A DNA stretch of 64,000 bases. Source: a phage. Below the pieces are notes generated by a model. It searched no databases. It saw nothing but the letters and a program-made list of their open reading frames with translations, and was not told where the DNA came from. The number at the start of each line of letters is the position of its first letter. Position 1 is the first letter of the stretch. The stretch is from sequence record PZ386973.1. The stretch is one strand, 5' to 3'. Of the stretch, positions 3,117 through 54,254 are shown in pieces. A program made the translations under genes and the position numbers.

Positions 3117-3177
3117 ATTTAATCTCCTCTTGGTAAGTAAGTATAACTTCAGTGTTTCTTCTCTAACTTACCAATAT

Positions 3178-3206
3178 ATTATATCAAAATATTGGGATAA
3201 TAGCAA
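3178..3206 (-). promoter_or_regulatory. sigma70-type promoter (-35 TTGCTA, 17-bp spacer, -10 TATAAT) upstream of the polymerase gene
   Basis: Reverse complement reads TTGCTA-17 nt-TATAAT; same architecture as the other promoters in the window. Confidence 0.5.
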
Positions 3207-3209
3207 ATA

Positions 3210-3539
3210 CTATTTATAGGTGTGAAGTAATTTACGCATTTCATTGCGCTGCTTTTCTAGTACCCGAAATTCTTCATCTATACGCAGAAAAGCATCTAGC
3301 GCTTTCATAGATTGCTCAGTATTTTCTACAACAGCCCAATCATATGTTAGGTATACCTCTTGACCTGTATCTTTTACTTTAAAGTAAATATAAGATGCAG
3401 GTAATTTAGGATCACCAAATAAATGGAAATTCTTTCGTTTATTAAGGGACTCCAGTGTTGTAAACCGCTCTAGTTTAACCTCTTTGTGTGTTATACTATC
3501 ATACACTGGAACATCCGCATAAATATATACATATTCCAT
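3210..3539 (-). CDS. hypothetical protein
   Basis: 109-aa ORF between primase and polymerase, same strand. Confidence 0.4.
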   Translation of the reverse strand: MEYVYIYADVPVYDSITHKEVKLERFTTLESLNKRKNFHLFGDPKLPASYIYFKVKDTGQEVYLTYDWAVVENTEQSMKALDAFLRIDEEFRVLEKQRNEMRKLLHTYK

Positions 3540-3565
3540 AGTAGCTCCTCAGTTATTTAGGACTA

Positions 3566-4456
3566 TTATACCAAATCTTTAAGCGATTCAGCAACTAAAA
3601 TTTCAATACGTTTTGCTAACATATCAATTTCTTCTTTATTTAAGTCACCTGGGTCTTTACCTTCAGGCAGAAGAAAGTTAGCAACTACAGGTGTTAAACG
3701 CGTTTTTGTACGAATTAGCTTGGCCAGTGCTTGTGCAGCTTTATTACCAGAAGCATCATTATCTAGTAAGATAACAACAACTTTTACACCAGCAATAATA
3801 TAAGGACTAAACTTATCTGCAATGTTATCCGAAGTAAACTGATGTGTACCAAAGCAGCAAGAAGCATAGTCTATGCCATTATCCTCTAGGTTCAGCATAT
3901 CAAAGATACCTTCAACTAAAATAAGAACTGGAGTATTATATCGTACAGGAAAAATTGGCGGTGAAACTTGTTTTGGTTTTACTAAGTATTTAGGAGGGGC
4001 AGAACTGTTTATAGAACGACCCAAAAATAGGGTATTGCGTCCAACAGCATCTGTGATTGGGAATACAATTCTGCCTTCCCAGTCTGCTTGGTGTTGGAAA
4101 GCAAAATATTTCTTCAAGGTCTTAGAACTTATACCTCGGAAATCACCTTCGAAAAGGTAAGCAGATTCAGGAATTGCAAGATTCGTTGATCCATTCCTAA
4201 TCTCTGAAATCTTTTTACGTACTTGCGATAGCCTTGGAGACTGTCGGTACTGAGTCTCATTAAAATAATGGTAAATGCTCGGTATACCTTTACCGAAGCC
4301 ACAACTCAAGCAGTGCATAATACCTGTTTCAGGATCAATACGCAAACTTGGGTGTTTATCGTCATGATCTGGATTGAGACAACAGATGAGGATGTCCCCA
4401 CCTGTGTCTTTATATTCAATGCCTTTCAGATCAAGTAGTTCTGTTATTCTACTCAT
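3566..4456 (-). CDS. DNA primase (DnaG-like, zinc finger plus Toprim)
   Basis: CHC2-type zinc finger (CLNPDHDDKHPS...HCLSCGFG); Toprim E (LILVEG) and DxD (LLDNDASG); 4-bp overlap with helicase gene. Confidence 0.8.
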   Translation of the reverse strand: MSRITELLDLKGIEYKDTGGDILICCLNPDHDDKHPSLRIDPETGIMHCLSCGFGKGIPSIYHYFNETQYRQSPRLSQVRKKISEIRNGSTNLAIPESAYLFEGDFRGISSKTLKKYFAFQHQADWEGRIVFPITDAVGRNTLFLGRSINSSAPPKYLVKPKQVSPPIFPVRYNTPVLILVEGIFDMLNLEDNGIDYASCCFGTHQFTSDNIADKFSPYIIAGVKVVVILLDNDASGNKAAQALAKLIRTKTRLTPVVANFLLPEGKDPGDLNKEEIDMLAKRIEILVAESLKDLV

Positions 4457-5925
4457 ATATCGCTGGCCTGTTCACCTGTTGAATTTTCAGCTTTGTCTTT
4501 CTTAGCACGTTTAGGTTGAGCCGGCTTATCCTTCTCAATAGGGATAACGAACTCAGCTTCCATTTGAGATATATCTTCCATTGCTAGGTTGGTAGTGTTA
4601 TCCATCCGCAGGGTTTCCCAGTTCATCTTAGGCATAAACTTAACGCTATCAGAAGAACGAGTCTTAACGAAGTCAAACATAATAGCACCTTGACCATTAT
4701 CAGCTTTTGCAGCATTAAGATTAGCAGCCATGTCTGCGGAATCAAGAATCCCCTTTGACATACGTGTTCTACCATCTTGATCGATCTGGTAAGGAGCTAC
4801 GCCAGCCACGTTATGTTTCTGGCAGATAGATTTGAAAGACGAGCTAACAACCATCTGTTCTTTCCAGTCATACATATCAATGGTTTTAGAGTCTGGAAGT
4901 CGGGTTTGGTTAATATAGTCAAGTAGAGCTACTGTAACTTTATCACCATATCTAGCAACTAATTTATTTAATTCTACGTCAACTGTTGTAATAGACAACT
5001 CAGGGTCATAAACAATAATCATAGGAGTATGTAGCTCATACCCTTCTATTAGCCTACTCTCCATATCGTAGAAATCACTCATCTTAGCCATTGTGTACTG
5101 TTTAACGAAGCTATCAAAAAGCTCTTCGCCACCATTAAACATCCTAGCTCTAGTTCTGGCTAATCTCAACAGAGCTGCACCTTCTAGAGTATTATTACGC
5201 ATTGCTAGTGCTGATACACCAGCTAACATGGCTAGATTACGTCTAAATACTTCATGTTCTTTCATCTCAATTGAGAAGTATGGAGCAATATCTCCATTCA
5301 AATATTGCTGAACCTGTATGTTTGAACAGATAATGGATTTACCAGTACCACGCCAACCACCAAGCAGTAACGTTTCTGTGCGAGCTAAACCAATTTGAGC
5401 GTCGAACTCATTACAAATACCAAGAGCGATTAAGTTCAGTTTGGTATCTTCTTCTCTCTGGAAAATACGCATGTTATCTGCGTTGAATACTTTTCCAGTA
5501 TTCGTTACTTTCTCTTCTAATTTTAAGTGAAGGGAGGCAACTCGGTTGAGAATTTCTCCCTGATCCAGCATTGTTAAATCTTGAAGCACGTCTGTTTCTA
5601 GAAGCTTCAGGAATAAATCCTGTGTATACTCGGCCTCTAGGACTTCAAGTGCCTGTTCCATGCTCACTTCTGGAATTTGAGTGTTAGCTAAGACGACTAG
5701 GGCTTGAGAAAGGCGGGCGTTCCTATTAGCTTCAAGCATAAGTGCGTCAATGGACGGCATTGTGTTATATTTTTTATAATAATTCTGGACGGCTTGGTAA
5801 ATTGAGGAGAAAGCGTCATTAAAATGATCTTTATGCAGTTTTGAGAATGTTTCCAATGCTATTTGCTTCTGTTCGGAAGCTAGAAGCATCTTCAACACTA
5901 CAGCTTGCACGTTAAACAAGGTCAT
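4453..5925 (-). CDS. DnaB-like replicative helicase
   Basis: Walker A GGWRGTGKS; start moved to the ATG at 5925, which has an AAGGAGA ribosome-binding site; track ORF extends to 5976. Confidence 0.7.
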   Translation of the reverse strand: MTLFNVQAVVLKMLLASEQKQIALETFSKLHKDHFNDAFSSIYQAVQNYYKKYNTMPSIDALMLEANRNARLSQALVVLANTQIPEVSMEQALEVLEAEYTQDLFLKLLETDVLQDLTMLDQGEILNRVASLHLKLEEKVTNTGKVFNADNMRIFQREEDTKLNLIALGICNEFDAQIGLARTETLLLGGWRGTGKSIICSNIQVQQYLNGDIAPYFSIEMKEHEVFRRNLAMLAGVSALAMRNNTLEGAALLRLARTRARMFNGGEELFDSFVKQYTMAKMSDFYDMESRLIEGYELHTPMIIVYDPELSITTVDVELNKLVARYGDKVTVALLDYINQTRLPDSKTIDMYDWKEQMVVSSSFKSICQKHNVAGVAPYQIDQDGRTRMSKGILDSADMAANLNAAKADNGQGAIMFDFVKTRSSDSVKFMPKMNWETLRMDNTTNLAMEDISQMEAEFVIPIEKDKPAQPKRAKKDKAENSTGEQASDI

Positions 5926-14649: not shown

Positions 14650-15039
14650 TTAGTCATTTAGGCCAGGAACATAGATCCCAACACGGTTTAATTGTTCTTT
14701 AGCTTCTTTAAGAATATCTGGAGTGTACTCCCAAACATCATCTTCCACCTGTAAAAGATGGGGCGAACAACCATCATCCGGCACACGACATATGGCCAGA
14801 CCACGTGGATGGAACAAAGAGAAATTTAGGGCAACAATCAAGCCCATAGCAGACAATTCATTCCAATCCAATTCCCATTCCCCGGCATATCCAGACAGGA
14901 AAACACCAATGCAGGGATCATCTATTTGCTGCTCCGGAAAAGTGAAGGAGGCTTGTCTTACCCCCAACCAACGTTGTAGTAGCTTCTCCGCACGTCTCAC
15001 CAAACTAGGGTCAATCTGACGCCAATATACTTGTTCCAT
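14650..15039 (-). CDS. hypothetical protein, paralog of adjacent ORF
   Basis: 129 aa; shares GL(I/V)(V/F)ALN..LF.P and C-terminal PGL motifs with 15049-15477. Confidence 0.45.
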   Translation of the reverse strand: MEQVYWRQIDPSLVRRAEKLLQRWLGVRQASFTFPEQQIDDPCIGVFLSGYAGEWELDWNELSAMGLIVALNFSLFHPRGLAICRVPDDGCSPHLLQVEDDVWEYTPDILKEAKEQLNRVGIYVPGLND

Positions 15040-15048
15040 TCTGCCCCC

Positions 15049-15477
15049 TTAAGCAGTTAAACCTGGGATCATATACCCGAAACGTCGAAGTTTCTGAATC
15101 CCCTCATTTACTTCTTCCGGTGAGTAAGACCAACCATAACGTTCATTAACCTGAAAACCAGGGGATTCACTAGTCTTATAGTTAACAACGAGGCGATGCT
15201 TAGCAGGCATAAACAGCTTATAGTTTAACGCAAAAACTAAGCCCATTTCATCTAACTCTTTCCAGCCAACAATTTCTTCAAGACCCTCCTCTACCTGAAC
15301 AATTAAACCAATACAGAGGGCCTCATCAATATCATCTTTAAAAGCAAAGGAGATTTCGTTATTCTCACACCATATTTTCAAGGAATTAATAGCCTCATTA
15401 TACAGGCTAGCCGGGAGAGTACGCCAAAAGTTAACCAAAATTGGGTTAGCTTCTTTAGAGAATACATTATTGAACAT
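15049..15477 (-). CDS. hypothetical protein, paralog of adjacent ORF
   Basis: 142 aa; tandem duplicate of 14650-15039. Confidence 0.45.
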   Translation of the reverse strand: MFNNVFSKEANPILVNFWRTLPASLYNEAINSLKIWCENNEISFAFKDDIDEALCIGLIVQVEEGLEEIVGWKELDEMGLVFALNYKLFMPAKHRLVVNYKTSESPGFQVNERYGWSYSPEEVNEGIQKLRRFGYMIPGLTA

Positions 15478-15479
15478 AC

Positions 15480-15986
15480 TTACACCTTAAATTGTTGTAA
15501 GGATTTACACATTTCAAGATCCGGGCTAAATTCTAGCATATAGCTAACAGCTTTTAAATCTTGAAGATTTATCCCAGTCCTACCGTTGACTATAACTGTT
15601 GGATACTGATACATCATAGCACCAGCATCATCAAGCACACACCAATGTTTGAGCTTATGCTTTTCAACGAAGCGAAGAACAGAATTACCCCTAGATAATC
15701 CACCACCAGTAAAATCCGTTGTACCAAGAAAACGATCGATAAGACCTAATCCGGTCATAATTCGAACGTTCTCCATTTCATTTTTAACAGAAAACCACGA
15801 AGATACCCCAACAATCATTATTGAAGAGGGACGAATAAAATCCTGAAAAGCCTTGAGAAGTGGCTTAAAAACCCAATCACTTCCGAAGAAGATCTTTTCA
15901 TCATCCGGCGCATGGTGGTGCGAGATGCTCGAATTGAGCACCCCATCAATATCTAGAAAAATAACTGGAGTATTACTTATTTCCAT
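15480..15986 (-). CDS. HAD-superfamily hydrolase/phosphatase-like protein
   Basis: N-terminal HAD motif I FLDIDGVL; 168 aa. Confidence 0.55.
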   Translation of the reverse strand: MEISNTPVIFLDIDGVLNSSISHHHAPDDEKIFFGSDWVFKPLLKAFQDFIRPSSIMIVGVSSWFSVKNEMENVRIMTGLGLIDRFLGTTDFTGGGLSRGNSVLRFVEKHKLKHWCVLDDAGAMMYQYPTVIVNGRTGINLQDLKAVSYMLEFSPDLEMCKSLQQFKV

Positions 15987-16155
15987 TTTTGTTCCTTTCT
16001 AAGAACGTATCATACTCAACCGTATCAACATATATGACACCATAGTCATCGGATTTATAGTCCATTTCCCACAGCTCACAGCGATAACACCAACTACCAT
16101 CCGCCCATACAAATATATCATCGGGATGTGTATATACAGATTTAACTATAGACAT
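15973..16155 (-). CDS. hypothetical small protein
   Basis: 60-aa ORF overlapping both neighbours by a few bases. Confidence 0.3.
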   Translation of the reverse strand: MSIVKSVYTHPDDIFVWADGSWCYRCELWEMDYKSDDYGVIYVDTVEYDTFLERNKNGNK

Positions 16156-16970
16156 ATTTGTTTCCCTGGCATATAAGGTCTACCCTCTAAATGAGCTTCC
16201 ACACGAGCAATAAAATCAGGATCACTGAAAGCATCTACCGCACCTTTACTCCAGTAAGGGACCCCACGTTCTTCCAGCTGGTACATCTCACTACGAGTCA
16301 TACCTTGATAGCCGGGCTCCGCTGCTAGAGCACTATCATAGTAGTTAACAACCATAAGTTTCGCAGCAGTCAAATTAAGAACAGGAAATAATTCCCAGTA
16401 GAAGTTAATTACTTGGTTAGAGCAACCAACTACAATAATCATATCTTGACTGGTAATACTGTCAAAAACATTATACATTTCTGCGTATGCAGGAGCATGC
16501 TCTCCAAAGAAGATTACATTAGGTTTAGCCCATTTATAATCATCCGGATCGATAGAACTGTATCCTACATCAATAATCCGTTTATTGCTACTATTGTATC
16601 TATCAGCTACAACAACCTCTTTTAAATATCCGTGAATGTGCAGAATGTCACTATGTGGAACGCCAGCACGCTCAATAAGGTCATCAACGTTGGTAGTCAA
16701 GTTTACTACTTGACCAGGGTATTGTTTATGCCATTCACCAATACGCAAATGCGCAAGATTGGGTTCGACAGTTTTTAGCTCTTCACGACGCTTGTTATAA
16801 AACATATGGGTTTTATGGTAAAAATTACCACGAAAGGCATGAATATTACATACTTCTTCTAGATCATAATCATCCCACAATGCTTTACCACTAGCAGTAT
16901 CAGTACGAAAAGCTCGTACACCACTTTCAACGCTCAAACCTGCACCGCTAATAATAATTACTCTACGCAT
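16146..16970 (-). CDS. Sir2-like (sirtuin family) NAD-dependent protein
   Basis: Rossmann signature SGAGLSVESGVRAFR and HG motif (ILHIHGY); no Cys4 zinc-ribbon visible. Confidence 0.7.
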   Translation of the reverse strand: MRRVIIISGAGLSVESGVRAFRTDTASGKALWDDYDLEEVCNIHAFRGNFYHKTHMFYNKRREELKTVEPNLAHLRIGEWHKQYPGQVVNLTTNVDDLIERAGVPHSDILHIHGYLKEVVVADRYNSSNKRIIDVGYSSIDPDDYKWAKPNVIFFGEHAPAYAEMYNVFDSITSQDMIIVVGCSNQVINFYWELFPVLNLTAAKLMVVNYYDSALAAEPGYQGMTRSEMYQLEERGVPYWSKGAVDAFSDPDFIARVEAHLEGRPYMPGKQICL

Positions 16971-17365: not shown

Positions 17366-17647
17366 TTAGTTCTGTACTGTAAATTTATTCTTATCACAGT
17401 AAGCATAATAATACCCATACATACGATAAATTTTCACAGCCTTAGTAGACCCCTTCGATTCTTCATAATCAATCCAGAGCCACTTGTCTTTACCTACATA
17501 ATGTACCCGAAACTTCTTAACTTTCTTATCATTCCATGTTGCAACAACACGACGATAATCAAATCCGCCCAACCAATCTAGAGCCTTACGTTCTTCACTA
17601 GGCTCTCCAAGATGGGAGACATCTACTTTAGGAAGCAATTCGCTCAT
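17366..17647 (-). CDS. hypothetical protein
   Basis: 93-aa ORF downstream of a minus-strand promoter. Confidence 0.4.
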   Translation of the reverse strand: MSELLPKVDVSHLGEPSEERKALDWLGGFDYRRVVATWNDKKVKKFRVHYVGKDKWLWIDYEESKGSTKAVKIYRMYGYYYAYCDKNKFTVQN

Positions 17648-17704: not shown

Positions 17705-17746
17705 ATAAAATAAAAGCCAGGTCGACTAGCAACCCGGCTGATTAGC

Positions 17747-19624
17747 TTATTTAGCTCGAATATCCTGATGTTTCACTCTGCCCATCACCTCGTGCTGTTT
17801 GCCGGGGTTAAATGGACGAGCACCTGGATTTCCAAGATACCCACAAACTCGACGAGTTACTTCAAGAGTTTCGGGGTCATGATTACCACAGATAGGGCAC
17901 TTAAATCCATCTTCGGATGCTATTGTTTCACCTAAGAATCCACATTTACCACAAGAATCCACTGGAGTATTAATACCGAAGTAATGAACCTTACTAGCAG
18001 CATAATTAATAACCCATTCCAGTGCATCTGGGAATCGTTTCATATCCGGTAGTTCCACATAGGAAATGCATCCACCAGAAGCAATCGGCGTAAAATTAGA
18101 TTCATAGTCGAACTTCACGTTTGGAGCAACCTTACGCTCCACATCTAGGTGGTGCGAGTTAGTGTAGTAACCTTTACTAAGAATATCTTCATGCTCCGGG
18201 AAATATTCACGATCTAAACGGCAGAAACGATCACATAAGGATTCAGATGGTGTAGCATACAGACTATAGCCTAACTGAGTCTCTTCCTTCTTCTGATCCA
18301 CTCTATCCCGCATATATTGTAGAACACGTTGTACAAACTTAATACAGGTCTCGGACATTGTATCTACATCTTTGCCAAACATAAATTGTAGCATCTCATG
18401 GCAACCAATATATCCCAGAGATACAGAAGCACGGTTATAGAAATGATCAAATACATATTCATCAGGCCCCAAGCGTAGTCCAAAGGCTCCTGACATATAG
18501 AGGATGGGTGCGGCTTTAGCTTGAATGTATTTTAAGCGATCAACTCTCCACTCCAGTGCTTTAAGCGCGGTATCCACACGTAGCTCAAGCAAATCAAAGA
18601 ATAGATCAATGTTCCCTTCAGCTTCGATAGCAATTCTAGGCAAGTTTACAGAAACAACACCTAAGTTATTACGACCGGCAGTTTCTCCATCTTCTGCAGC
18701 AGCTAGGAACGAACGGCAGCCCATAGAAACTTTATAGTCACCAGTAACTTCCACAACCTTATCATAGCTGATGTAATCAGGATACATACGTTCAGCAGTA
18801 CATTTCATAGCTAACTTCTTGATGTCATAATTAACATCCCCTGGTTTCATATTTACGCCATCACGAAGTACAAATACCAGTTTCGGGAAGATAGCTGTAC
18901 GTTTATTGATACCTAAACCATCCATGCGTACTTTCAGTATTGCTTTCTGTACTAGACGTGCTTCCCAAGAAGTTCCTAGACCAAAACCAAAGGTAATAAA
19001 TGGACTCTGACCATTAGAGTTGAACATGGTATTGATTTCATATTCTAAACCCTGACAAGCGTCATAGACTTCTTTTTCAGTCATCTCCGTAGCCATTACG
19101 GATGCTTTAGCTTCATCCTTAGTCCAACGTTTTGCAAACGCATGATTTTTGTCATAGGATTTACGAACATAAGGGGCTAATACTTCATCAAGGCGATCTA
19201 CAGAAGTACCACCATACTGATGGGAGCTAACCTGAGTAATAATTTGAGCAGTAATAGCCGCCGCAGTAGTGATAGAGTTTGGAGTGCTAATTTCAGCATT
19301 ACCAACTTTCATACCATTCTTCAACATATCTTCCAGAGCTACCAGACAACAGTTAGTCATGCCTAATGCAGCATAATCAGCATCATGGAAATGAATATCC
19401 CCAATCATATGAGCATTTCGAATCTGAATTGGCATTTCTTCTAGAATTAGATACTTACTCAATTCACCTGCAAGCATATCCCTTTGTGTAGGGAAACGTT
19501 CTGAGGGTTTATTGGCATTATTAAATAGCAGTTCTTCATCTGCTGACCCTTCGATAATCTCTTTGCAGTTTCTAATTAACGCCTGCATTTCTTTATATTT
19601 TAGTTCTTCATTACGATTCATCAC
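17747..19624 (-). CDS. nrdD: anaerobic ribonucleoside-triphosphate reductase (class III)
   Basis: 625 aa; C-terminal glycyl-radical motif RRVCGYLG and zinc ribbon CGKCGF...CPICG. Confidence 0.85.
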   Translation of the reverse strand: MMNRNEELKYKEMQALIRNCKEIIEGSADEELLFNNANKPSERFPTQRDMLAGELSKYLILEEMPIQIRNAHMIGDIHFHDADYAALGMTNCCLVALEDMLKNGMKVGNAEISTPNSITTAAAITAQIITQVSSHQYGGTSVDRLDEVLAPYVRKSYDKNHAFAKRWTKDEAKASVMATEMTEKEVYDACQGLEYEINTMFNSNGQSPFITFGFGLGTSWEARLVQKAILKVRMDGLGINKRTAIFPKLVFVLRDGVNMKPGDVNYDIKKLAMKCTAERMYPDYISYDKVVEVTGDYKVSMGCRSFLAAAEDGETAGRNNLGVVSVNLPRIAIEAEGNIDLFFDLLELRVDTALKALEWRVDRLKYIQAKAAPILYMSGAFGLRLGPDEYVFDHFYNRASVSLGYIGCHEMLQFMFGKDVDTMSETCIKFVQRVLQYMRDRVDQKKEETQLGYSLYATPSESLCDRFCRLDREYFPEHEDILSKGYYTNSHHLDVERKVAPNVKFDYESNFTPIASGGCISYVELPDMKRFPDALEWVINYAASKVHYFGINTPVDSCGKCGFLGETIASEDGFKCPICGNHDPETLEVTRRVCGYLGNPGARPFNPGKQHEVMGRVKHQDIRAK

Positions 19625-19871
19625 ACCCTCCTTCTCTAACTAAGACTACTATTATAACTCATTCGAGGGCGGATGTCAACAATATTTTACTATAAAGTTC
19701 TGTAACATGATCTGAGTCAAAAAATTTTATTTGCCAACCTCTATTAAAAATTGTATAATCACGCACTCGTGTATGCGATATAAAATGATTGTCTAGTATC
19801 ACACATCTACCATTAAAAGCAAGCAAATTTTTTATTTAAATGCAATATCATAGGCTTATTTAAAATTGTAG

Positions 19872-19900: not shown

Positions 19901-19973
19901 ATATTTGTAAGTTGATAAACAAGATCTTTTTGTTGATCCTCTGTTAGCGAAGTACACTATAGGAGTGTTATTT

Positions 19974-20726
19974 ATGGGAAAAGCACGTCAAAAAAGAGAG
20001 AACCGCAATGGTTCAAGAAAGCGTGGCAACAAATATGAGAATAACGTAATTCAGGCTGATTTTTCTAATGATTACGCTAACCCAGTTGCTAAATCCCTAG
20101 TAGGTAAAAACCGCGAGCAAAAATCATATATCAATATGATCAAGAACAACACAGTGACTGTGGGTATCGGTGAGCCAGGTACTGGTAAAACCTTTATTCC
20201 GTCTGTTCTTGCAGCTCAGGAACTCGTAGACATTCACTCAGATATTGAGCAAGTGATTCTCGTACGTCCTAATGAACCTCTAGGTAAGTCTCTTGGTATG
20301 CTTCCTGGTGATCTAGCGGAAAAGCTAGAGCCTTGGTTGGAGCCAATAGCTGATGGTATGAAATGGGCCATCGGCGACCATGCATATAAAGGATATGTCG
20401 AACGTCAGAAAATTAAATTTTTGGCTATCGAACATGCTCGTGGCAGAACTTTCAACAACTCCTATGTAATTGTCGATGAAGCTCAGAATATTTCCGTTGA
20501 GGCAATGATTTGTCTCCTAACTCGTGTAGGACAAGATTGCCGTTTAATTATCTGCGGAGATATAGCTCAGAAAGACATTAAAGGTGACTCAGGTCTAGCA
20601 CTACTTATGGAAGTCTATGAGAAATACGAAAATGCCCCATTCTCAATGATCGAATTGATTGATAACGTTCGTTCTGTTGAGTCTAAAGCATTCTATGATA
20701 TTTTTAAAGACATGGGGAAGGTGTAA
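19974..20726 (+). CDS. phoH: PhoH-like ATPase
   Basis: Walker A GIGEPGTGKTF; start set at the ATG behind an AGGAG ribosome-binding site (track start 19965 is GTG). Confidence 0.8.
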   Translation: MGKARQKRENRNGSRKRGNKYENNVIQADFSNDYANPVAKSLVGKNREQKSYINMIKNNTVTVGIGEPGTGKTFIPSVLAAQELVDIHSDIEQVILVRPNEPLGKSLGMLPGDLAEKLEPWLEPIADGMKWAIGDHAYKGYVERQKIKFLAIEHARGRTFNNSYVIVDEAQNISVEAMICLLTRVGQDCRLIICGDIAQKDIKGDSGLALLMEVYEKYENAPFSMIELIDNVRSVESKAFYDIFKDMGKV

Positions 20727-20949: not shown

Positions 20950-21091
20950 GCTAAAAAGCTAGACTGACAACACAGAAGGCCTGGGTATGAAAATACTCGG
21001 GCCTTTTCTATCAGAAAATTTTATTTGCCTAATGACCGATAATAAAGTAGAATATTTCCTAAATCCTGATAACTATAAAAAGGAAAACCAA

Positions 21092-23422
21092 ATGAGCCAT
21101 CGTATTGAAAAAGTAATTAAACGTGACGGTACTGTAGAAGACTTTGCTCCTGAAAAAATCAATGGTTGGGCAGAGTATGGTTGCAAAACAGTTGATGTAA
21201 GTTGGTCAGCCATTACTATGGCTGCTCAAAAAACTCTGCCTAAAGGGGTTGTAGATTCCGACACTCTGATGGACGCATTAATTAAAGCTGCTGAAAGTCT
21301 TATCAAAGATAACCCAGCATACGACGTGCCGGCAAAGGAATTACGTCTTGCGCAAATGCGTAAACGCCTCTATGATTCCTTCGAACCGCCTTCTCTGCGC
21401 TTCTTCCATGACCATATGGTTAGCGTAGGTGCATGGGAAGACATGAGTGCATGGATTACCGATGAGCAATTTGAAGCTCTGAATCAGGTTATCGACCATG
21501 ATCGTGATCGTCTTTTTACTAGTGGTGGACTGAAGCAGTTCTTTGATAAGTATTCCCGTCGTAATATAGCCACTGGTGAAATTTATGAAACCCCGCAATT
21601 TGCCTACATGGGTATGGCAATGGCGATGCTATCTCAACCTAACTGGACAATTCTAGATGCAATCGACCTCTACAACGCAATGTCGCTCCACAAAATCAAC
21701 GTTCCTACGCCGCCACTGGTTGGTCTGCGCTCTAGTGACCGCGGATTTGCTAGTTGCTGCCTCGTGGATTCCACTGACACATTGGATTCAATCGACACCG
21801 CCGAGCACATCGTCTTCAAAATGGTCGCAGCCAGAGCGGGAATCGGGTATCATCTTGAAAGCCGATCAATTGCTGATCCGGTGCGAAATGGGGCATTCCC
21901 GCATTCCGGAAAACTGCCATATTATCGACACATTGATCGATCAGTAAAAGCGAACACTCAGCAAACCCGTGGTGGTTCTGCTACTGTATCTTACCCGTAC
22001 TTCGATCCTGAAATCATTCAGTTGATGCAGGTTAAGCAACAACGTGCTACAGACGAGAATAAAATCGACAAGATGGATTATTCTCTGAGCTTCAATAATC
22101 TTTTGTTAAAACGTTATCTGAAAAACGAAGATATTACGCTAATGTCGTACTTCTATGCCCCAGAAGTTCATGAAGCGTTTTATAGTGATGACGAGGCTAA
22201 ATTTGAAGAAATCTATGTGGCAGCGGAGAAACGTGTGGCATCTCTTACAAAGATCGACCACGAAGGAAAAACAGTTCCAGCAGCTCCTAAAGTCTCTGCA
22301 AAAGAAATCCTAGATACCTGGCTGCGTATCCGAATGGAAACAGGACGTATGTATGCTCATCACATTGGGGAATCTAATCGTCATGGTAACTTCCTTGATC
22401 CGATCCGTATGACAAACCTTTGTGTTGAAATTACTCAGCCTACACGCCCGTTCCACCATATCACAGAACTGTATAAGACAAAAGAGCAGCTTGATCAAAT
22501 GAAGCCAGAGGATATTGGTGAAGTATCTCTGTGTAACTTAGGCGGTGTTGTACTTGGACGCATGGAATCTCTGGCTGAGTGGGAAAAGACTTGCTATATT
22601 CTTCTGAAATTCGTTGATACCATCATTGAAATTCAGGATTATCCATTCCCAACTATGGAATATACGGCTAAGAAACGTCGTAACGTTGGTATTGGTCTGA
22701 TGAACGCAGCAGGTGCAATGGCAGCGGAAGGTTTGGCTTATGAAGGCGTTGAAGCGCGTAACTGGATTCATCGTGAAGCTGAAAAACTGTCCTACTTCCT
22801 GCATAAAGCCTCTGTACGCCTAGCCAAAGAGCAAGGTGCATGTGAATGGTTTGACCGTACTAAACCGTCTAAAGGAATACTGGTAATCGACACGTACAAG
22901 AAAACTGTTGATGAACTGGTATCAGTAGGTCTAGAAATGGATTGGGAATCTCTACGTGCAGATATTCTGAAATATGGTATGCGTAACTCTGTTCTGACTG
23001 CTCAGATGCCTGGAGAAAGTTCTTCTGTACTGTTGGGTGTTACTAACTCTATCGAACCGCCTCGTAAGATTGTATCTATCAAGGGTAGTGCGGTGAATAA
23101 AGTAATTGCAATTGCTCCAGGTGCAACCGATTGGGAAACGTTAATGAGCTATAAACTGGCTTATGATGTAGATCGTATCGAGTGGATCAAATGGGTAGCA
23201 ACTATGCAGAAATTCTTCAGTCAGTCTATCAGTACGAATATGTACTATGACTACACCAAGTTTGAGAATGAAATCATTCCTGGCCCAGTAGTAGTTCGTG
23301 ATTTCATGACTGCTGTTAAGTATGGGTGGAAAACTTGGTATTATGCTAACTTCAACACTGCAAATGGTGGAGGTGCTGGAGAAGAAGCAGCCGGTTGTGC
23401 ATCCGGTGGTTGTACTATTTAA
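21092..23422 (+). CDS. nrdA: ribonucleoside-diphosphate reductase alpha subunit (class I)
   Basis: ATP-cone start (MSHRIEKVIKRDG) and active-site NLCVEI; start moved from 20987 to the ATG behind an AAAGGAAAA ribosome-binding site. Confidence 0.9.
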   Translation: MSHRIEKVIKRDGTVEDFAPEKINGWAEYGCKTVDVSWSAITMAAQKTLPKGVVDSDTLMDALIKAAESLIKDNPAYDVPAKELRLAQMRKRLYDSFEPPSLRFFHDHMVSVGAWEDMSAWITDEQFEALNQVIDHDRDRLFTSGGLKQFFDKYSRRNIATGEIYETPQFAYMGMAMAMLSQPNWTILDAIDLYNAMSLHKINVPTPPLVGLRSSDRGFASCCLVDSTDTLDSIDTAEHIVFKMVAARAGIGYHLESRSIADPVRNGAFPHSGKLPYYRHIDRSVKANTQQTRGGSATVSYPYFDPEIIQLMQVKQQRATDENKIDKMDYSLSFNNLLLKRYLKNEDITLMSYFYAPEVHEAFYSDDEAKFEEIYVAAEKRVASLTKIDHEGKTVPAAPKVSAKEILDTWLRIRMETGRMYAHHIGESNRHGNFLDPIRMTNLCVEITQPTRPFHHITELYKTKEQLDQMKPEDIGEVSLCNLGGVVLGRMESLAEWEKTCYILLKFVDTIIEIQDYPFPTMEYTAKKRRNVGIGLMNAAGAMAAEGLAYEGVEARNWIHREAEKLSYFLHKASVRLAKEQGACEWFDRTKPSKGILVIDTYKKTVDELVSVGLEMDWESLRADILKYGMRNSVLTAQMPGESSSVLLGVTNSIEPPRKIVSIKGSAVNKVIAIAPGATDWETLMSYKLAYDVDRIEWIKWVATMQKFFSQSISTNMYYDYTKFENEIIPGPVVVRDFMTAVKYGWKTWYYANFNTANGGGAGEEAAGCASGGCTI

Positions 23423-23528: not shown

Positions 23529-24674
23529 ATGACTACTTTACTAAACCTGAATTGGGACCATACTAACGCTGACCTTTTCCTGGGAGATTCTCTCGGTGTC
23601 GCAGATTATGTACGCGTAGCACATCCAGAACTAGAACGTCTGGCACTTCTGCAACGCTCTCAATTTTGGACTGAAACTGAAATCAGTCTGGAAGCAGATA
23701 AGAAACAATGGCCTAATCTCCCACGTGAAATTCAGGAAATTACACTCCTGAACTTAGCATGGCAGACTCAAACTGATTCCTTTATCAGTCGTGCCCCTGA
23801 AGCAGCTATTATGCCGCTTGTAAGTCGTCCAGAATTGGAAGGAATGTTAAAGCAGTGGAGCTACTTCGAAGACCTGCATAGTCGTGCTTATAGTAATATT
23901 ATTCGTAATGTGTTGACTGACCCAGCAGAATTTATTGATTCTGTAACTAAAAACCAAGAAGCATTCGCACGAATCGCTGATTCTGTTGAACTATTCGATG
24001 AACTGTACCAGTTAGGTCAGTATTTCATTGCAGTACGCGATCATCGTGGCGACAATACTTATCCAGAAACTGAGTTCCCTGAAGTTAAACGTGAAACTCA
24101 GGCTAAACTATTAGACGCTTACTTTGCTATCTATGGTCTGGAAGCAATGCAGTTTTACGCATCATTTGCATGTACCTTTGCATTAGCAGAGAACGATATT
24201 CTGCAAGGTATTGCTAAAAATCTGCAATTAATCGCTAAAGATGAAGCTCTGCACACTCAGATGTCCAAAGCAATCATCCAGATTATGTTCCAGCAGTTTG
24301 ACAAAGACCTGGTGGATGAAGCAGTGGCTAAAGCACCAGCACAGCTCCTGAAAACTCTGAAAACTGAAATTGAATGGGGTCATTTCATTTTCAAAGGTCG
24401 TAGTCTGATTGGCTTGAATGCAGAACTTCTAGAAGAATATCTGTACTTTGTGGGGCGTAATGCATTTATGCACATCGGTGTAGAATGGCCTAGTCACTTA
24501 CCAGTAATCACCAAAAACCCTATTCCGTGGATCATGAACTGGTTGGATACTACTTCTCTACAGCCTGCTCCGCAAGAAATCCAGATTGGTGCAGCTTACC
24601 GTGTAGGTCAGGTAACTGAGACCTCTACGGATACCCTGAAAGATCTGGGTAATGAATTTGGAGATTTCTTATGA
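23529..24674 (+). CDS. nrdB: ribonucleoside-diphosphate reductase beta subunit
   Basis: 381-aa ORF directly downstream of nrdA with a ferritin-like profile; 4-bp overlap with the next gene. Confidence 0.8.
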   Translation: MTTLLNLNWDHTNADLFLGDSLGVADYVRVAHPELERLALLQRSQFWTETEISLEADKKQWPNLPREIQEITLLNLAWQTQTDSFISRAPEAAIMPLVSRPELEGMLKQWSYFEDLHSRAYSNIIRNVLTDPAEFIDSVTKNQEAFARIADSVELFDELYQLGQYFIAVRDHRGDNTYPETEFPEVKRETQAKLLDAYFAIYGLEAMQFYASFACTFALAENDILQGIAKNLQLIAKDEALHTQMSKAIIQIMFQQFDKDLVDEAVAKAPAQLLKTLKTEIEWGHFIFKGRSLIGLNAELLEEYLYFVGRNAFMHIGVEWPSHLPVITKNPIPWIMNWLDTTSLQPAPQEIQIGAAYRVGQVTETSTDTLKDLGNEFGDFL

Positions 24675-34122: not shown

Positions 34123-35070
34123 ATGTTTGCTACTAAAAATATGAAAGAACTGACTTCTGAGCAGAAAGTAATTCGTACTATTAAACGTTGGGGTATTGGT
34201 GCTGTAGTTGGTTTAGCAGGTTTAATCCTAGCTTTTAATTCATATACTATTGTTTCTGATGGTACGGTTAAAACCCAAACATTCCTGGGTAAAGTAGACC
34301 CTAATCCAGTATTGCCAGGTTTCCATCTTGTAAACCCGTTTGCATCTTTCGATACTTTTAGTACAAAAGATATTGCTGTAAAATTAGATAAACTTCAGGT
34401 TCCTAGTCAGGATAAGTTTAAATCCACTGTTGACCTGACTGTTATGTTGCAGTTTGATGGTTCTAAGGCACCTATTAACCGTATTAATGCGGGTACTCAG
34501 GATCAGGCACTAGACAAGTATGTAACTGAAAAATTACTATCTACTATTCGTGAGTTTGGTAAGTCTGTACCTAAAGCACAAGATTTGTTTGATGCTAAAA
34601 TTCAGGCTCAATTGCAAACTGCAATTCAACAGGAAGTTGAAGAGTATGCACGCCCATATGGTTACACAGTTAAGCAGGTGTTCCTTCAGGATATTACTTT
34701 GCCACCGGTAATCATGGAACAGGTACAGAATACCAAAGTTCGTGAAGAGCAAGTTAATGCTGCGAAAGCTGAACTGGCTCGTGTTGAACAGGAAGCACAG
34801 CAAAAAGTTAAACAAGCAGAAGCAGATCGTGAAGCTCGCAACAACCAAGCTATTGCTAATGAACGTGACGCAGATGCTAAACTGTACGCAGCTAAGAAAG
34901 AAGCTGAAGCTAACGCCGCATTGCAACGTACCATTACTCCTGAGATGATTCGCTGGAAGCAACTGGAAGTTGAAATGATTCGTGCTCAGAAATACCAAGG
35001 TGGTGTACCACAGACGGTAGTTGGTACTGGTTATGATGGCCAGATGATTATGGATATGCGTAACAAGTAA
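34123..35070 (+). CDS. SPFH/band-7 (prohibitin-like) membrane protein
   Basis: N-terminal transmembrane helix, band-7-like core, C-terminal coiled coil; 315 aa. Confidence 0.6.
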   Translation: MFATKNMKELTSEQKVIRTIKRWGIGAVVGLAGLILAFNSYTIVSDGTVKTQTFLGKVDPNPVLPGFHLVNPFASFDTFSTKDIAVKLDKLQVPSQDKFKSTVDLTVMLQFDGSKAPINRINAGTQDQALDKYVTEKLLSTIREFGKSVPKAQDLFDAKIQAQLQTAIQQEVEEYARPYGYTVKQVFLQDITLPPVIMEQVQNTKVREEQVNAAKAELARVEQEAQQKVKQAEADREARNNQAIANERDADAKLYAAKKEAEANAALQRTITPEMIRWKQLEVEMIRAQKYQGGVPQTVVGTGYDGQMIMDMRNK

Positions 35071-45567: not shown

Positions 45568-45936
45568 ATGAAAGCATATCAAAATCTTAAATCTGGCGTA
45601 ATTAACCTTGTTCATGAAAATCAGATTATTCAGCTATACTCCGACAACGGTGAACTTAAACAGAAAGTTCTAGTTGAAGATCTAGAAGGTATCACCCCAC
45701 AATTCGATCCTGAAGCCTTCCGTGAAGTCAAAGTGGAAGTCGCCCCTCAAATCGAAGGTGGTCAGCACCTAAATGTCAATGTGTTAAGCCGTGATCAGCT
45801 TTTGGATGCGCAGAAACATCCTGAAAAATATCCTCAGTTGACCATCCGTGTCTCTGGCTACGCTGTTCGATTTAACGCACTGACTCGTGAACAACAGAAC
45901 GACGTTATTAGTCGTACATTTACTCAGGCGATGTAA
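45568..45936 (+). CDS. GrcA/YfiD-like autonomous glycyl-radical cofactor protein
   Basis: C-terminal glycyl-radical signature [19 protein letters not shown]; 122 aa. Confidence 0.75.
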
Positions 45937-46017
45937 TGGGGTTTGGATACGATTTCTCCGAGCTACATGAGGTAGTCGAGCAAACTCCATTTATCTCCCA
46001 AGTTTTAGGAGAAATGT

Positions 46018-46323
46018 GTGGATCGAGCATTAAGACGCCATCACCGGCAACGTGTGAAGAACAACCGTAAGAAGTATTGGACAGTCTTTCCACATGAAGA
46101 AAGCCCTAAGCGGTTAGGTATTATCACTACTACTCCTTGCATCTGTTCTTGTTGGATGTGTGGGAACCCTCGCAAATATTATAAGAATAGTAAAGCAGGT
46201 ATGAAAACCTCGGAGATCAGGAAAATGGAAGCGATGATTGCGGACATCACCTATACTGGTGGTATTTCAAATGATGAATTTGATGGCTTCGTAGCGTTCG
46301 AAGATGAACGCCCCGATCTGTAA
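46018..46323 (+). CDS. hypothetical Cys-rich protein (CxxxCxxC)
   Basis: GTG start behind an AGGAG ribosome-binding site; motif C-ICS-C-WM-C; basic N-terminus. Confidence 0.4.
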   Translation: MDRALRRHHRQRVKNNRKKYWTVFPHEESPKRLGIITTTPCICSCWMCGNPRKYYKNSKAGMKTSEIRKMEAMIADITYTGGISNDEFDGFVAFEDERPDL

Positions 46324-46331
46324 TTAATAAC

Positions 46332-46367
46332 AAACCCCAGCTATTGAATAAGTAGTCTGGGGTTTTT
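46332..46367 (+). terminator. rho-independent terminator
   Basis: AAACCCCAG...CTGGGGTTTTTCTG. Confidence 0.6.
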
Positions 46368-46444
46368 CTGTATAAAGGTACATAATATATGTATAATAAA
46401 ATTCATCCACATTAGGTTAATTTAAAAGACTTAATGGAGGTAAT

Positions 46445-53539: not shown

Positions 53540-53971
53540 ATGTCTGATCGTTTCTATACTCAAATGGCGGAACATTTTCGTATACCACATTACGAGCTAA
53601 ACATTGCACTCCGTGATCATGACTCTCCTGAGTACAAAAAGCTCGAAAAGAAAGCGGAAAAATCTATTGATACAAAGGTAGGTGCATCTATGTCTAAGGG
53701 CAAAAAGTTAACTCGTCTTGATCTTAATAAAATTTTAACTGAACTTTTGGGTACTGATATTGAAGGTGCTAAATTACCGCTTCTTGTACTAGAGACTATG
53801 ATTAAAAAGGTCAAAAATAAAGAATATAAGAAAGTAGAAGTCCCAGAAGGCAGATTAAAGGCTCCTTATCAGGAAGCATTAACCGAGTGTTTGGGTGTAA
53901 ATCTTGATCTGAGCACCGCAACCGTAAAAACTATGAAAAACTTCTTAGAGGCCATTAATAACTATGAGTAA
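53540..53971 (+). CDS. hypothetical protein
   Basis: 143-aa ORF. Confidence 0.45.
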   Translation: MSDRFYTQMAEHFRIPHYELNIALRDHDSPEYKKLEKKAEKSIDTKVGASMSKGKKLTRLDLNKILTELLGTDIEGAKLPLLVLETMIKKVKNKEYKKVEVPEGRLKAPYQEALTECLGVNLDLSTATVKTMKNFLEAINNYE

Positions 53972-54254
53972 ACTAGTATATCTATTGAAAGGTTCCACTT
54001 GCAACCCTTGCAAAATGTTTGAGCCAGTATTTGATAAAGTAGTCAGTGACTATAATTTGGAAATCCATAAAGAGACTGATAATACAGAATTAATGCAGAA
54101 ATTTGGTGTACGCCAAGTTCCTGTAGTAGTTCTGGCGGATCGCTTACCTAATGGTCGAGTAGAAGCTAATCATATTCTGATTGGACGTCAGCTTCGTAAA
54201 GAAACTATGCACGAAGCTATTAAAAATTTCCTGGATGATAATCCAGAGGATTAA
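53964..54254 (+). CDS. thioredoxin/glutaredoxin-like protein
   Basis: CxxC active-site-like CNPC near the N-terminus; 96 aa. Confidence 0.5.
   Translation: MSKLVYLLKGSTCNPCKMFEPVFDKVVSDYNLEIHKETDNTELMQKFGVRQVPVVVLADRLPNGRVEANHILIGRQLRKETMHEAIKNFLDDNPED

What the first reader, a model, noticed from the sequence alone, without database searches (positions are those of the whole stretch)
17747..19624. NrdD lacks an adjacent activase; a separate GrcA-like gene and a CxxxCxxC mini-protein lie 26 kb away
Class III reductase needs the radical-SAM activase NrdG, but no NrdG-like ORF flanks nrdD here. Elsewhere, 45568-45936 encodes a GrcA-like glycyl-radical spare-part protein and the next ORF (46018-46323, 101 aa) carries a C-x3-C-x2-C motif, the cluster-binding signature of radical-SAM enzymes, although it is too short for a canonical activase.
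Basis: partly seen in the sequence, partly recalled or inferred. Interest (0 to 1): 0.5.

Follow-up and report, generated by a model that had tools for sequence, protein, structure and literature searches.

The report
T5-like phage nrdD without an activase
This T5-like phage carries an intact anaerobic ribonucleotide reductase gene and a GrcA-like "spare part" gene but no activating enzyme, so both most likely depend on the host's NrdG and PflA; this gene pattern is already documented for T5-type phages, and the nearby cysteine-rich mini-protein is not an activase.

Summary
The window is a T5-like phage (Tequintavirus, about 96% identical to Salmonella phages SCF and oldekolle).

- nrdD (17747-19621, minus strand) is intact and under strong purifying selection. 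It has its own consensus promoter and terminator.
- No NrdG or PflA homologue exists in the window, or in the complete genomes of oldekolle and T5.
- 45568-45936 encodes a GrcA-like glycyl-radical protein.
- 46018-46323 is a real gene whose product contains C-x3-C-x2-C.

The activase idea for the 101-aa protein fails.
- It belongs to a large uncharacterised family (T5.055; more than 2000 clusters) with the motif RRHH…TPxxCSCxMCGNPR.
- The first Cys of the "radical-SAM" triad is conserved in only about 27% of members.
- There is no profile similarity to radical-SAM enzymes or NrdG.
- Family members occur in genomes without glycyl-radical neighbours.

The best explanation is that both phage glycyl-radical proteins are clients of host activases: NrdG for NrdD and PflA for the GrcA-like protein, as shown for T4 Y06I. 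nrdD-only phages, including the T5 group, were described in 2013. This is ordinary and already known. One mildly interesting possibility remains: phage GrcA may protect PFL-derived formate, which is NrdD's reductant.

The parts
19651..19679 (-). sigma-70 consensus promoter of nrdD (TTGACA-17-TATAAT, 12/12)
   Evidence: sequence. T5 has a promoter annotated at the equivalent place.
17747..19621 (-). nrdD, the class III (anaerobic) ribonucleotide reductase catalytic subunit, 624 aa from the ATG at 19621 (the ORF list starts it at the GTG at 19624). It has no ATP-cone. The glycyl radical site is RVCGY, with Gly595 in 625-aa numbering.
   Evidence: Pfam and NCBIfam matches. Residues equivalent to T4 C79, C290, N311, the four Zn-site Cys and G580 are all conserved. 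Synonymous versus non-synonymous codon differences are 113:8 against T5 and 83:4 against oldekolle.
17715..17739 (-). intrinsic terminator directly after the nrdD stop codon, making nrdD monocistronic
   Evidence: The T5 annotation has a terminator at the same place.
17366..17647 (-). 93-aa ORF downstream of nrdD, of unknown function (phrog_7953). It was checked as a possible nrdG remnant and rejected.
   Evidence: Weak NrdG hit (tblastn E=0.57, phmmer E=0.065). hhalign probability is 0.1%, and the matching motif is not conserved in its own family.
19965..20726 (+). phoH, divergent from nrdD. It lies between nrdD and the class Ia genes nrdA (20987-23422) and nrdB (23529-24674).
   Evidence: Pfam PhoH 3e-61. 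Relatives are annotated the same way. The arrangement is described for T5, EPS7 and SPC35 in PMC3653736.
44736..44764 (+). promoter-like site heading the unit that runs through a 97-aa ORF, a 68-aa ORF, tRNA-Ile, tRNA-Met, the grcA-like gene and the 101-aa ORF. By position it would correspond to T5 promoter P11 (my inference).
45568..45936 (+). GrcA/YfiD-like autonomous glycyl-radical 'spare part' protein, 122 aa (homologue of T5.056; T4 vs.6 clade). The radical site is RVSGYAVRF.
   Evidence: Pfam Gly_radical 3.7e-18. NCBIfam GrcA model gives 121 bits, below its cut-off of 170. It is 74% identical to E. coli GrcA and 79% identical to the PflB C-terminus. It is 52-55% identical over its full length to homologues in T4-like phages.
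46018..46323 (+). 101-aa basic Cys-motif protein (T5.055 / ORF053 family, phrog_4499) of unknown function; not an activase. GTG start 5 nt after AGGAGA.
   Evidence: Coding signal: synonymous:non-synonymous 9:4 and 14:5 in frame, against 1-4:11-19 in the other frames. Family and motif. No radical-SAM relationship.
46332..46370 (+). intrinsic terminator closing the grcA-like / 101-aa unit
   Evidence: Hairpin of -19 kcal/mol, z = -5.1, followed by UUUUU. T5 has a terminator annotated at the same place.

Best explanation
A Tequintavirus (T5-like) phage encodes two glycyl-radical proteins and no radical-SAM activase of its own.

(1) nrdD is an intact, independently transcribed class III ribonucleotide reductase catalytic subunit of the E. 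coli/T4 type, which uses formate as reductant. Its Gly595 radical is most likely installed by the host's NrdG, which E. coli and Salmonella both encode, with host flavodoxin and SAM. This would let the phage make dNTPs when oxygen is too low for its own class Ia NrdAB.

(2) The 122-aa GrcA-like protein is a spare glycyl-radical domain for host pyruvate formate-lyase that has been cleaved by oxygen. It would be activated by host PflA, as demonstrated for T4 Y06I.

(3) The 101-aa protein co-transcribed with it belongs to a widespread, uncharacterised family of small basic proteins. Its three conserved Cys, possibly together with the conserved HH, probably bind a structural metal. It has nothing detectable to do with radical-SAM chemistry.

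Shown here: gene identities, intactness, purifying selection, transcription signals, absence of activase homologues, and non-conservation of the Cys triad. Inferred: activation by the host enzymes, and metal binding by the small protein.
For: - Taxonomic placement and synteny with T5 and oldekolle.
- NrdD family scores and conservation of every catalytic, Zn-site and radical residue.
- Purifying selection on nrdD of 113:8 and 83:4 synonymous to non-synonymous codons.
- nrdD has its own promoter, ribosome-binding site and terminator.
- No C-x3-C-x2-C in any long ORF other than the 101-aa one, in the window, oldekolle or T5.
- No NrdG or PflA homologue by tblastn, phmmer or HMM at E<=10, with the HMM detecting the NrdG genes it was built from and, independently, E. 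coli PflA.
- The 32 residues around the radical glycine are 25/32 identical to E. coli NrdD, against 20/32 to T4-type NrdD.
- The host carries nrdG next to nrdD, and pflA.
- The literature reports that many phages carry nrdD plus nrdAB without nrdG, and describes the T5/EPS7/SPC35 nrdD-phoH-nrdAB arrangement (PMC3653736).
- T4 Y06I and E. coli YfiD are activated by PFL-AE and rescue cleaved PFL (PMC8683613).
- The 101-aa family lacks any radical-SAM signal and has unrelated genomic contexts.
Against: - No experiment shows that E. coli or Salmonella NrdG activates a T5-type NrdD. Phage and host NrdD are only 53% identical overall.
- T4 carries its own nrdG, which suggests that cross-activation cannot be taken for granted.
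- Only 64 kb of this phage is in the window. Absence of nrdG from the remainder is inferred from two complete relatives.
- The reference T5 sequence has a 50-aa in-frame deletion in nrdD, so the gene is dispensable at least in laboratory culture.
- The GrcA-like protein scores below NCBIfam's GrcA cut-off (121 against 170 bits), and its N-terminal half is unlike E. coli GrcA.
Confidence: 0.8

Rival explanations
1. The 101-aa Cys-motif protein (46018-46323) is a minimal or novel Fe-S activase, or an activase accessory factor, for the adjacent GrcA-like protein and/or for NrdD.
For: - It contains C-x3-C-x2-C.
- It is co-transcribed with the grcA-like gene, between one promoter and one terminator.
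- NCBIfam gives faint hits to two radical-SAM models over the motif region (E=0.011 and 0.084; 14.6 and 11.4 bits).
- The gene is under purifying selection.
Against: - Those hits lie far below their cut-offs of 268 and 500 bits, and Pfam gives nothing.
- hhalign against NrdG gives a probability of 0.02%.
- At 101 aa the protein is too short for the partial TIM barrel and SAM-binding motifs that every known glycyl-radical activase has (established knowledge).
- The first Cys of the triad is Cys in only 38/142 representatives, and only 42/150 carry any C-x3-C-x2-C.
- The family exceeds 2000 clusters, and the two members examined lie in another phage and in a bacterial chromosome without glycyl-radical enzymes nearby.
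- The structure model is helical and of low confidence, with no PDB match.
Confidence: 0.03
2. The phage does encode an activase, but one so divergent or non-homologous that sequence methods miss it. It would be among the many hypothetical proteins, or in the part of this phage's genome outside the window.
For: - Most small early genes of T5-like phages have no known function.
- The window covers only about 60% of a 110-kb genome.
- Dwivedi et al. accepted nrdG hits only when they lay next to other RNR genes, so a distant nrdG could have been overlooked in that study.
Against: - Complete genomes of oldekolle and T5 were scanned in six frames with an NrdG HMM, phmmer and tblastn at E<=10 without a credible hit, while the HMM found the unrelated-in-training PflA at 2e-12.
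- No ORF of 100 aa or more carries C-x3-C-x2-C, apart from the small T5.055-family protein in all three genomes and one 174-aa T5 reading frame (TICTATCSDC) that was not examined further.
- All known glycyl-radical activases are canonical radical-SAM proteins (established knowledge).
Confidence: 0.07
3. The phage nrdD is a non-functional relic or has been put to another use, so no activase is needed.
For: - The reference T5 genome carries a 150-nt in-frame deletion that removes 50 residues, including the conserved RASVSLGYIGCHE segment.
- The phage also has a complete class Ia NrdAB.
Against: - In this window the gene is full length with every catalytic, Zn-site and radical residue.
- It is under strong purifying selection (113:8 and 83:4).
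- It is driven by a perfect consensus promoter and a strong ribosome-binding site.
- The 3-kb nrdD query region is at least 80% covered in 353 of 455 matching phage records.
Confidence: 0.05

Closest known systems
Bacteriophage T5 nrdD (T5.099) and the nrdD-phoH-nrdA-nrdB arrangement of T5/EPS7/SPC35 phages
   Same: The gene order, strand layout and promoter/terminator placement are the same, and there is no nrdG. DNA identity to T5 nrdD is about 92-93%.
   Different: The window's nrdD is full length, whereas the reference T5 sequence has a 50-aa in-frame deletion.
T4 NrdD/NrdG anaerobic ribonucleotide reductase
   Same: Both are class III enzymes without an ATP-cone. They are about 51% identical, with all catalytic and Zn-site residues and the radical Gly conserved.
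   Different: T4-type phages carry nrdG immediately downstream of nrdD. This phage has none, and its radical loop is closer to the host's (25/32 against 20/32).
E. coli GrcA (YfiD) and T4 Y06I (vs.6) spare-part glycyl radical proteins
   Same: All are small proteins of about 120-127 aa whose C-terminal roughly 60 residues copy the PflB glycyl-radical domain (RVSGYAVRF). The window's protein is 74% identical to GrcA and 79% to PflB there. It is 52-55% identical over its full length to T4-like phage homologues. The T4 protein is activated by host PFL-AE (PMC8683613).
   Different: The N-terminal half is unrelated to that of E. coli GrcA, and the score is below NCBIfam's GrcA equivalog cut-off. 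It is untested biochemically. That Y06I and vs.6 are the same protein rests on my memory.
Radical-SAM glycyl-radical activases (NrdG, PflA)
   Same: The only shared feature with the 101-aa protein is a literal C-x3-C-x2-C string.
   Different: The 101-aa protein has no profile similarity, is about half the minimal size, has a Cys triad that is not conserved in its family, and shows no association with glycyl-radical enzymes across the family.

Membership tests
Class III ribonucleotide reductase catalytic subunit (NrdD) | Match to the NRDD / NrdD equivalog profiles above the curated cut-offs | tested here: met
   Pfam PF13597 at 574 bits (cut-off 26); NCBIfam NF006732 at 843 bits (cut-off 657); TIGR02487 at 587 bits (cut-off 326).
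Class III ribonucleotide reductase catalytic subunit (NrdD) | C-terminal glycyl radical motif RVCGY with the radical Gly (T4 G580) | tested here: met
   TRRVCGYLG is present, and Gly595 aligns with T4 G580 and the E. coli radical Gly.
Class III ribonucleotide reductase catalytic subunit (NrdD) | Active-site Cys pair and Asn (T4 C79, C290, N311) and the four-Cys Zn site | tested here: met
   C92, C303, N320, C558, C561, C576 and C579 all align.
Class III ribonucleotide reductase catalytic subunit (NrdD) | Glycyl radical formation by an activase, and formate-dependent NTP reduction | not testable with these tools
   Requires anaerobic biochemistry and EPR.
Complete class III RNR system (nrdD plus nrdG) | A radical-SAM activase NrdG encoded with nrdD | tested here: not met
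   No NrdG or PflA homologue in the window, oldekolle or T5. nrdD is monocistronic. The ORF downstream of nrdD is not NrdG-like.
Glycyl-radical-enzyme activase (radical SAM) - for the 101-aa protein | C-x3-C-x2-C cluster motif conserved across homologues | tested here: not met
   The first Cys is Cys in 38/142 representatives (otherwise Ala, Thr or Lys). Only 42/150 have the motif. The conserved pattern is CSCxMC.
Glycyl-radical-enzyme activase (radical SAM) - for the 101-aa protein | Similarity to Radical_SAM, Fer4_12, NrdG or PflA profiles | tested here: not met
   Pfam gave no hit at E<=0.1. NCBIfam gave 14.6 and 11.4 bits against cut-offs of 268 and 500. hhalign against NrdG gave a probability of 0.02%.
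Glycyl-radical-enzyme activase (radical SAM) - for the 101-aa protein | Size and fold sufficient for SAM binding (at least about 150 aa; partial TIM barrel) | tested here: not met
   The protein is 101 aa and the family median is 88 aa. The AF2 model is all-helical, with pLDDT 66.
GrcA/YfiD autonomous glycyl radical cofactor | Small protein whose C-terminus reproduces the PflB glycyl-radical domain (RVSGYAVRF) | tested here: met
   Gly_radical 3.7e-18. It is 79% identical to PflB residues 699-760 and 74% identical to GrcA residues 54-127.
GrcA/YfiD autonomous glycyl radical cofactor | Score above the NCBIfam GrcA equivalog cut-off (TIGR04365) | tested here: not met
   121 bits against a cut-off of 170. 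The N-terminal half diverges, so the protein is called 'GrcA-like' and placed with the phage vs.6-type homologues (phrog_1209).
GrcA/YfiD autonomous glycyl radical cofactor | Activation by PFL-AE and rescue of oxygen-cleaved PFL | not testable with these tools
   Shown only for E. coli YfiD and T4 Y06I (PMC8683613).

The most novel reading that the evidence does not exclude
In T5-like phages, and in T4-like phages, the GrcA-like protein and NrdD form one functional module that borrows both host activases. By repairing oxygen-damaged host PFL, the phage GrcA keeps formate flowing, and formate is the reductant of this type of class III reductase. That would secure phage dNTP synthesis in fluctuating micro-oxic gut conditions. 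One genomic hint: in Aeromonas phage Ah1 the GrcA-like gene lies in the operon nrdD-nrdG-vs.6-nrdC-nrdH and overlaps the end of nrdG. GrcA-like genes are found in 1586 phage records; the 40 sampled rows are almost all T5-like and T4-like phages, groups that carry nrdD.
Probability: 0.3. Interest if true: 0.45.

Novelty: already known. Interest (0 to 1): 0.2.

Why it matters
The result shows a phage carrying only the catalytic halves of two oxygen-sensitive radical systems and leaving the radical-generating enzymes to the host. That matters for understanding how gut phages replicate without oxygen, and it predicts that host nrdG and pflA are host factors for T5-like phages under anaerobiosis, which is relevant to phage therapy in the gut. 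The gene pattern itself is already in the literature and in annotations, and the proposed mini-activase does not hold up. The remaining value is modest: a testable GrcA-formate-NrdD link, and a large unannotated family of small proteins.

Tried and rejected
1. The 93-aa ORF directly downstream of nrdD gave the best weak hit to E. coli NrdG. 'LGGFD…GKDKWLWIDY' matched 'LSGGD…GKDIWVWTGY' with identical spacing (tblastn E=0.57, phmmer E=0.065). I tested it as an nrdG remnant and rejected it. hhalign gave a probability of 0.1%, the motif is not kept in its own homologues, and T5 has an unrelated gene, T5.100, at that position.
2. A 47-aa antisense segment at 34243-34383 was the top NrdG-HMM hit (E=0.005). 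It lacks the Cys triad and lies antisense inside the SPFH-protein gene, so it is chance.
3. 'Ribonucleotide reductase subunit' annotated next to the grcA-like gene in phages SE24 and JNwz02 appears, from its position and size, to be the C-terminal piece of a split grcA-like gene rather than an RNR gene. I inferred this from coordinates and did not check the sequence.
4. Structure prediction of the 101-aa protein gave pLDDT 52 with 22 sequences and 66 with 40 sequences. Foldseek against the PDB returned nothing.
5. A profile of the family against PDB sequences and Pfam gave nothing meaningful.
6. Literature searches found no experimental work on T5 NrdD activation or on T5 GrcA.
7. I could not list all 2282 phage records that carry an NrdG homologue, so I could not prove that no T5-like record is among them. 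Two complete genomes were checked instead.
Full report
**What the window is.** The 3-kb region around the finding is 96% identical to Salmonella phages SCF, vB_Sen_I1 and oldekolle, and it matches 455 phage records, almost all T5-like. Oldekolle is classified as Demerecviridae, Tequintavirus. Gene order is collinear with T5. The shared blocks are:
- replication genes;
- nrdD with a divergent phoH, followed by nrdA, nrdB, frd and thy;
- a block of 22 tRNAs;
- small early genes.

**The observation.** The ORF at 17747-19624 (minus strand) is NrdD.
- It matches Pfam NRDD at 4e-172 and Gly_radical at 9e-23. It matches NCBIfam NF006732 at 843 bits against a cut-off of 657.
- It lacks an ATP-cone, as T4 NrdD does.
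- In an alignment with E. coli and T4-type NrdD, every functional residue is conserved. These are the residues matching T4 C79, C290 and N311, the Zn-site Cys543/546/561/564, and the radical Gly580, which is Gly595 here.
- Overall identity is 52.6% to E. coli NrdD and 50.9% to the T4 type.
- The gene is under strong purifying selection. Synonymous versus non-synonymous codon differences are 113 to 8 against T5 and 83 to 4 against oldekolle.

nrdD is also its own transcription unit.
- A 12/12 consensus promoter (TTGACA-17-TATAAT) lies at 19679-19651.
- An AAGGAGG ribosome-binding site sits 5 nt before the ATG at 19621, so the GTG at 19624 is not the real start.
- A GC-rich hairpin with a T-run lies at 17739-17715, directly after the stop codon.
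- T5 is annotated the same way.

None of the flanking ORFs has a radical-SAM domain. They comprise a 93-aa, a 67-aa and a 73-aa ORF, Sir2, a HAD protein, DUF7415 proteins and phoH.

**Is there an nrdG anywhere?** Three lines of evidence say no.
- In the window, the only C-x3-C-x2-C in any stop-to-stop ORF of at least 40 aa is in the 101-aa ORF, apart from a 41-aa Cys-rich stretch. The complete genomes of oldekolle and T5 add only a few further literal matches: short Cys-rich stretches of 44 aa or less, and a TICT(T/A)TCSDC stretch in a 74-aa frame in oldekolle and a 174-aa frame in T5, which I did not examine further.
- tblastn with E. coli NrdG, a T4-type NrdG and E. coli PflA gave only noise at E<=10 against the window and oldekolle.
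- phmmer and a three-sequence NrdG HMM, run with filters off against 2603 six-frame ORFs of the window, oldekolle and T5, gave nothing credible. The HMM scored its own three training NrdG genes at about 1e-85 and found E. coli PflA, which was not in the model, at 1.7e-12.

The top HMM hit (E=0.005) is a 47-aa antisense fragment without the Cys triad. For this phage's unseen 45 kb it remains an inference.

**A lead that failed.** The best E. coli NrdG hit in the window fell on the 93-aa ORF immediately downstream of nrdD, which is where nrdG sits in T4-type phages. The match looked tempting, with LGGxD and GKDxWxWxxY at the same 25-residue spacing. It did not hold up:
- the ORF's own divergent homologues do not keep these residues;
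- profile-profile comparison with NrdG gives a probability of 0.1%;
- T5 has an unrelated gene at that position.

It is not an nrdG remnant.

**The GrcA-like gene.** 45568-45936 encodes 122 aa with a Gly_radical domain (3.7e-18).
- The C-terminal 62-74 residues are 79% identical to the PflB C-terminus and 74% identical to E. coli GrcA. They include GGQHLNVNV and the RVSGYAVRF radical site.
- The radical motif is of the PFL type, not the NrdD type (RVCGYLG). The protein is therefore a spare part for PFL, not for NrdD.
- It scores 121 bits on NCBIfam's GrcA model, below the cut-off of 170, because its N-terminal half differs from bacterial GrcA.
- It is 52-55% identical over its full length to homologues in T4-like phages, annotated as vs.6 or 'autonomous glycyl radical cofactor'. 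In total, 1586 phage records hold a homologue. Apart from one unclassified faecal-metagenome contig, the 40 sampled rows are all T5-like or T4-like phages.
- In T5 the gene is T5.056.
- The T4 protein Y06I and E. coli YfiD receive their radical from host PFL-AE and restore oxygen-cleaved PFL (PMC8683613, citing Wagner et al. 2001).

**The 101-aa ORF.**

*It is a real gene.*
- It has an AGGAGA ribosome-binding site 5 nt before the GTG at 46018.
- It has a strong terminator at 46332-46370 (-19 kcal/mol, z = -5.1).
- Against oldekolle and SE24, synonymous to non-synonymous codon changes are 9:4 and 14:5 in frame, compared with 1-4:11-19 in the other two frames.
- Several deposited annotations, including phiP4 and oldekolle, call only a 32-35-aa tail because they miss the GTG start.
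- It is T5.055 / ORF053.

*It is not an activase.*
- Pfam gives no hit at E<=0.1.
- NCBIfam gives only 14.6 and 11.4 bits to two radical-SAM models over the Cys motif, against cut-offs of 268 and 500 bits.
- An exhaustive profile search finds 2160 cluster representatives at E<=1e-3. The best 150 listed are all small, with a median length of 88 aa.
- The family signature is R-A-x-R-R-H-H … T-P-x-x-C-S-C-x-M-C-G-N-P-R.
- The Cys that opens the C-x3-C-x2-C string, C41, is Cys in only 38/142 representatives; elsewhere it is mostly Ala, Thr or Lys. Only 42/150 carry any C-x3-C-x2-C. C43, C45 and C48 are essentially invariant.
- hhalign of the family against NrdG gives a probability of 0.02%.
- The family has no Pfam family and no relative of solved structure.
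- AF2 models are helical and of low to moderate confidence (pLDDT 52 and 66), and Foldseek finds nothing in the PDB.
- The two family members I examined lie in an unrelated phage (next to Cpn10 and a GIY-YIG nuclease gene) and in a bacterial chromosome among housekeeping genes such as gatB. Neither has a glycyl-radical gene nearby.

My inference is a small, basic protein, possibly nucleic-acid-binding, with a structural metal site formed by three Cys and perhaps one of the conserved His. That is unproven.

**Mechanism.** The most economical reading is that both phage glycyl-radical proteins are substrates of host activases.
- E. coli K-12 carries nrdG next to nrdD, and pflA next to pflB.
- The 32 residues around the NrdD radical glycine, the segment an activase must bind, are 25/32 identical to E. 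coli NrdD and only 20/32 identical to T4-type NrdD. This fits recognition by host NrdG, whereas T4 brings its own.
- For the GrcA-like protein, the T4 precedent of activation by host PFL-AE is experimental.

Activation of a T5-type NrdD by host NrdG is inferred. I found no experiment on it.

**A possible link between the two genes.** E. coli/T4-type class III reductases use formate as reductant (established knowledge, Mulliez et al. 1995, cited from memory). PFL is the cell's formate source. A phage GrcA that repairs PFL would therefore protect the reductant supply for phage NrdD. In Aeromonas phage Ah1 the GrcA-like gene sits inside the operon nrdD-nrdG-vs.6-nrdC-nrdH and overlaps the end of nrdG by 4 nt. 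This remains a hypothesis, and I give it a probability of about 0.3.

**Comparison with what is known, and novelty.** Dwivedi et al. [quoted passage not shown] The T5 reference annotation already marks T5.056 as carrying the glycine-radical domain, and many relatives label the gene 'autonomous glycyl radical cofactor'. The finding is therefore real but already known. The one new suggestion, a mini-activase, is not supported. Interest is low (0.2).

Noticed in passing
L017 (T5 NC_005859.1), about 19140 within nrdD 17962-19686; corresponds to window codons ~394-443 of nrdD (about 18295-18444): The reference T5 genome has a 150-nt in-frame deletion in nrdD, flanked by a 5-nt microhomology. It removes 50 residues, including the conserved RASVSLGYIGCHE segment that is intact in the window and in oldekolle. 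This suggests nrdD is dispensable, and may be inactivated, in laboratory-propagated T5.
   Followed up: partly
L020 (Aeromonas phage Ah1 NC_055733.1) 1367-4947: The operon runs nrdD-nrdG-vs.6 (GrcA-like)-nrdC-nrdH, with the GrcA-like gene overlapping the nrdG stop codon by 4 nt. This is a genomic link between phage GrcA-like proteins and anaerobic ribonucleotide reduction.
   Followed up: partly
window 46018-46323 and relatives P0096-P0243: The T5.055-type small protein belongs to a very large family with no Pfam or PDB match. There are 2160 representatives of 50%-identity clusters at E<=1e-3, and the best 150 have a median length of 88 aa. The motif is RAxRRHH…TPxxCSCxMCGNPR. The two members whose context I examined lie in an unrelated phage and in a bacterial chromosome.
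   Followed up: partly
window 45936-46070 (+): A 44-aa ORF starts at the TAATG that overlaps the grcA-like stop codon, and it overlaps the start of the 101-aa ORF in another reading frame. In one distant homologue (P0073, 124 aa) a similar N-terminal peptide (…FSELHEVVEQTP…) is fused in frame to the small Cys protein. Substitutions among close relatives are mixed, so whether it is translated is unclear.
   Followed up: no
window 46018-46323; L003 2677-2775; L006 12243-12350: Deposited annotations of close relatives (phiP4, oldekolle) call only a 32-35-aa C-terminal fragment of this gene, apparently because the GTG start was missed. The full ORF is intact in both.
   Followed up: yes
window 14650-16970 (-): A cluster lies downstream of nrdD: a Sir2-family protein (16146-16970), a HAD domain of the 'Swiss Army Knife RNA repair' type (15480-15986), and two paralogous DUF7415 proteins (15049-15477 and 14650-15039).
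   Followed up: no
L002 (Salmonella phage SE24) 1762-2130: The grcA-like gene is annotated as two pieces, 'pyruvate formate-lyase' (65 aa) and 'ribonucleotide reductase subunit' (51 aa). This is probably a frameshift or sequencing error, and the second label is misleading.
   Followed up: no
window 53964-54254 (+): A phage thioredoxin-like protein of 96 aa (Thioredoxin_3 and Thioredoxin, E about 8e-6). It is presumably the reductant for the class Ia NrdAB rather than for NrdD.
   Followed up: no
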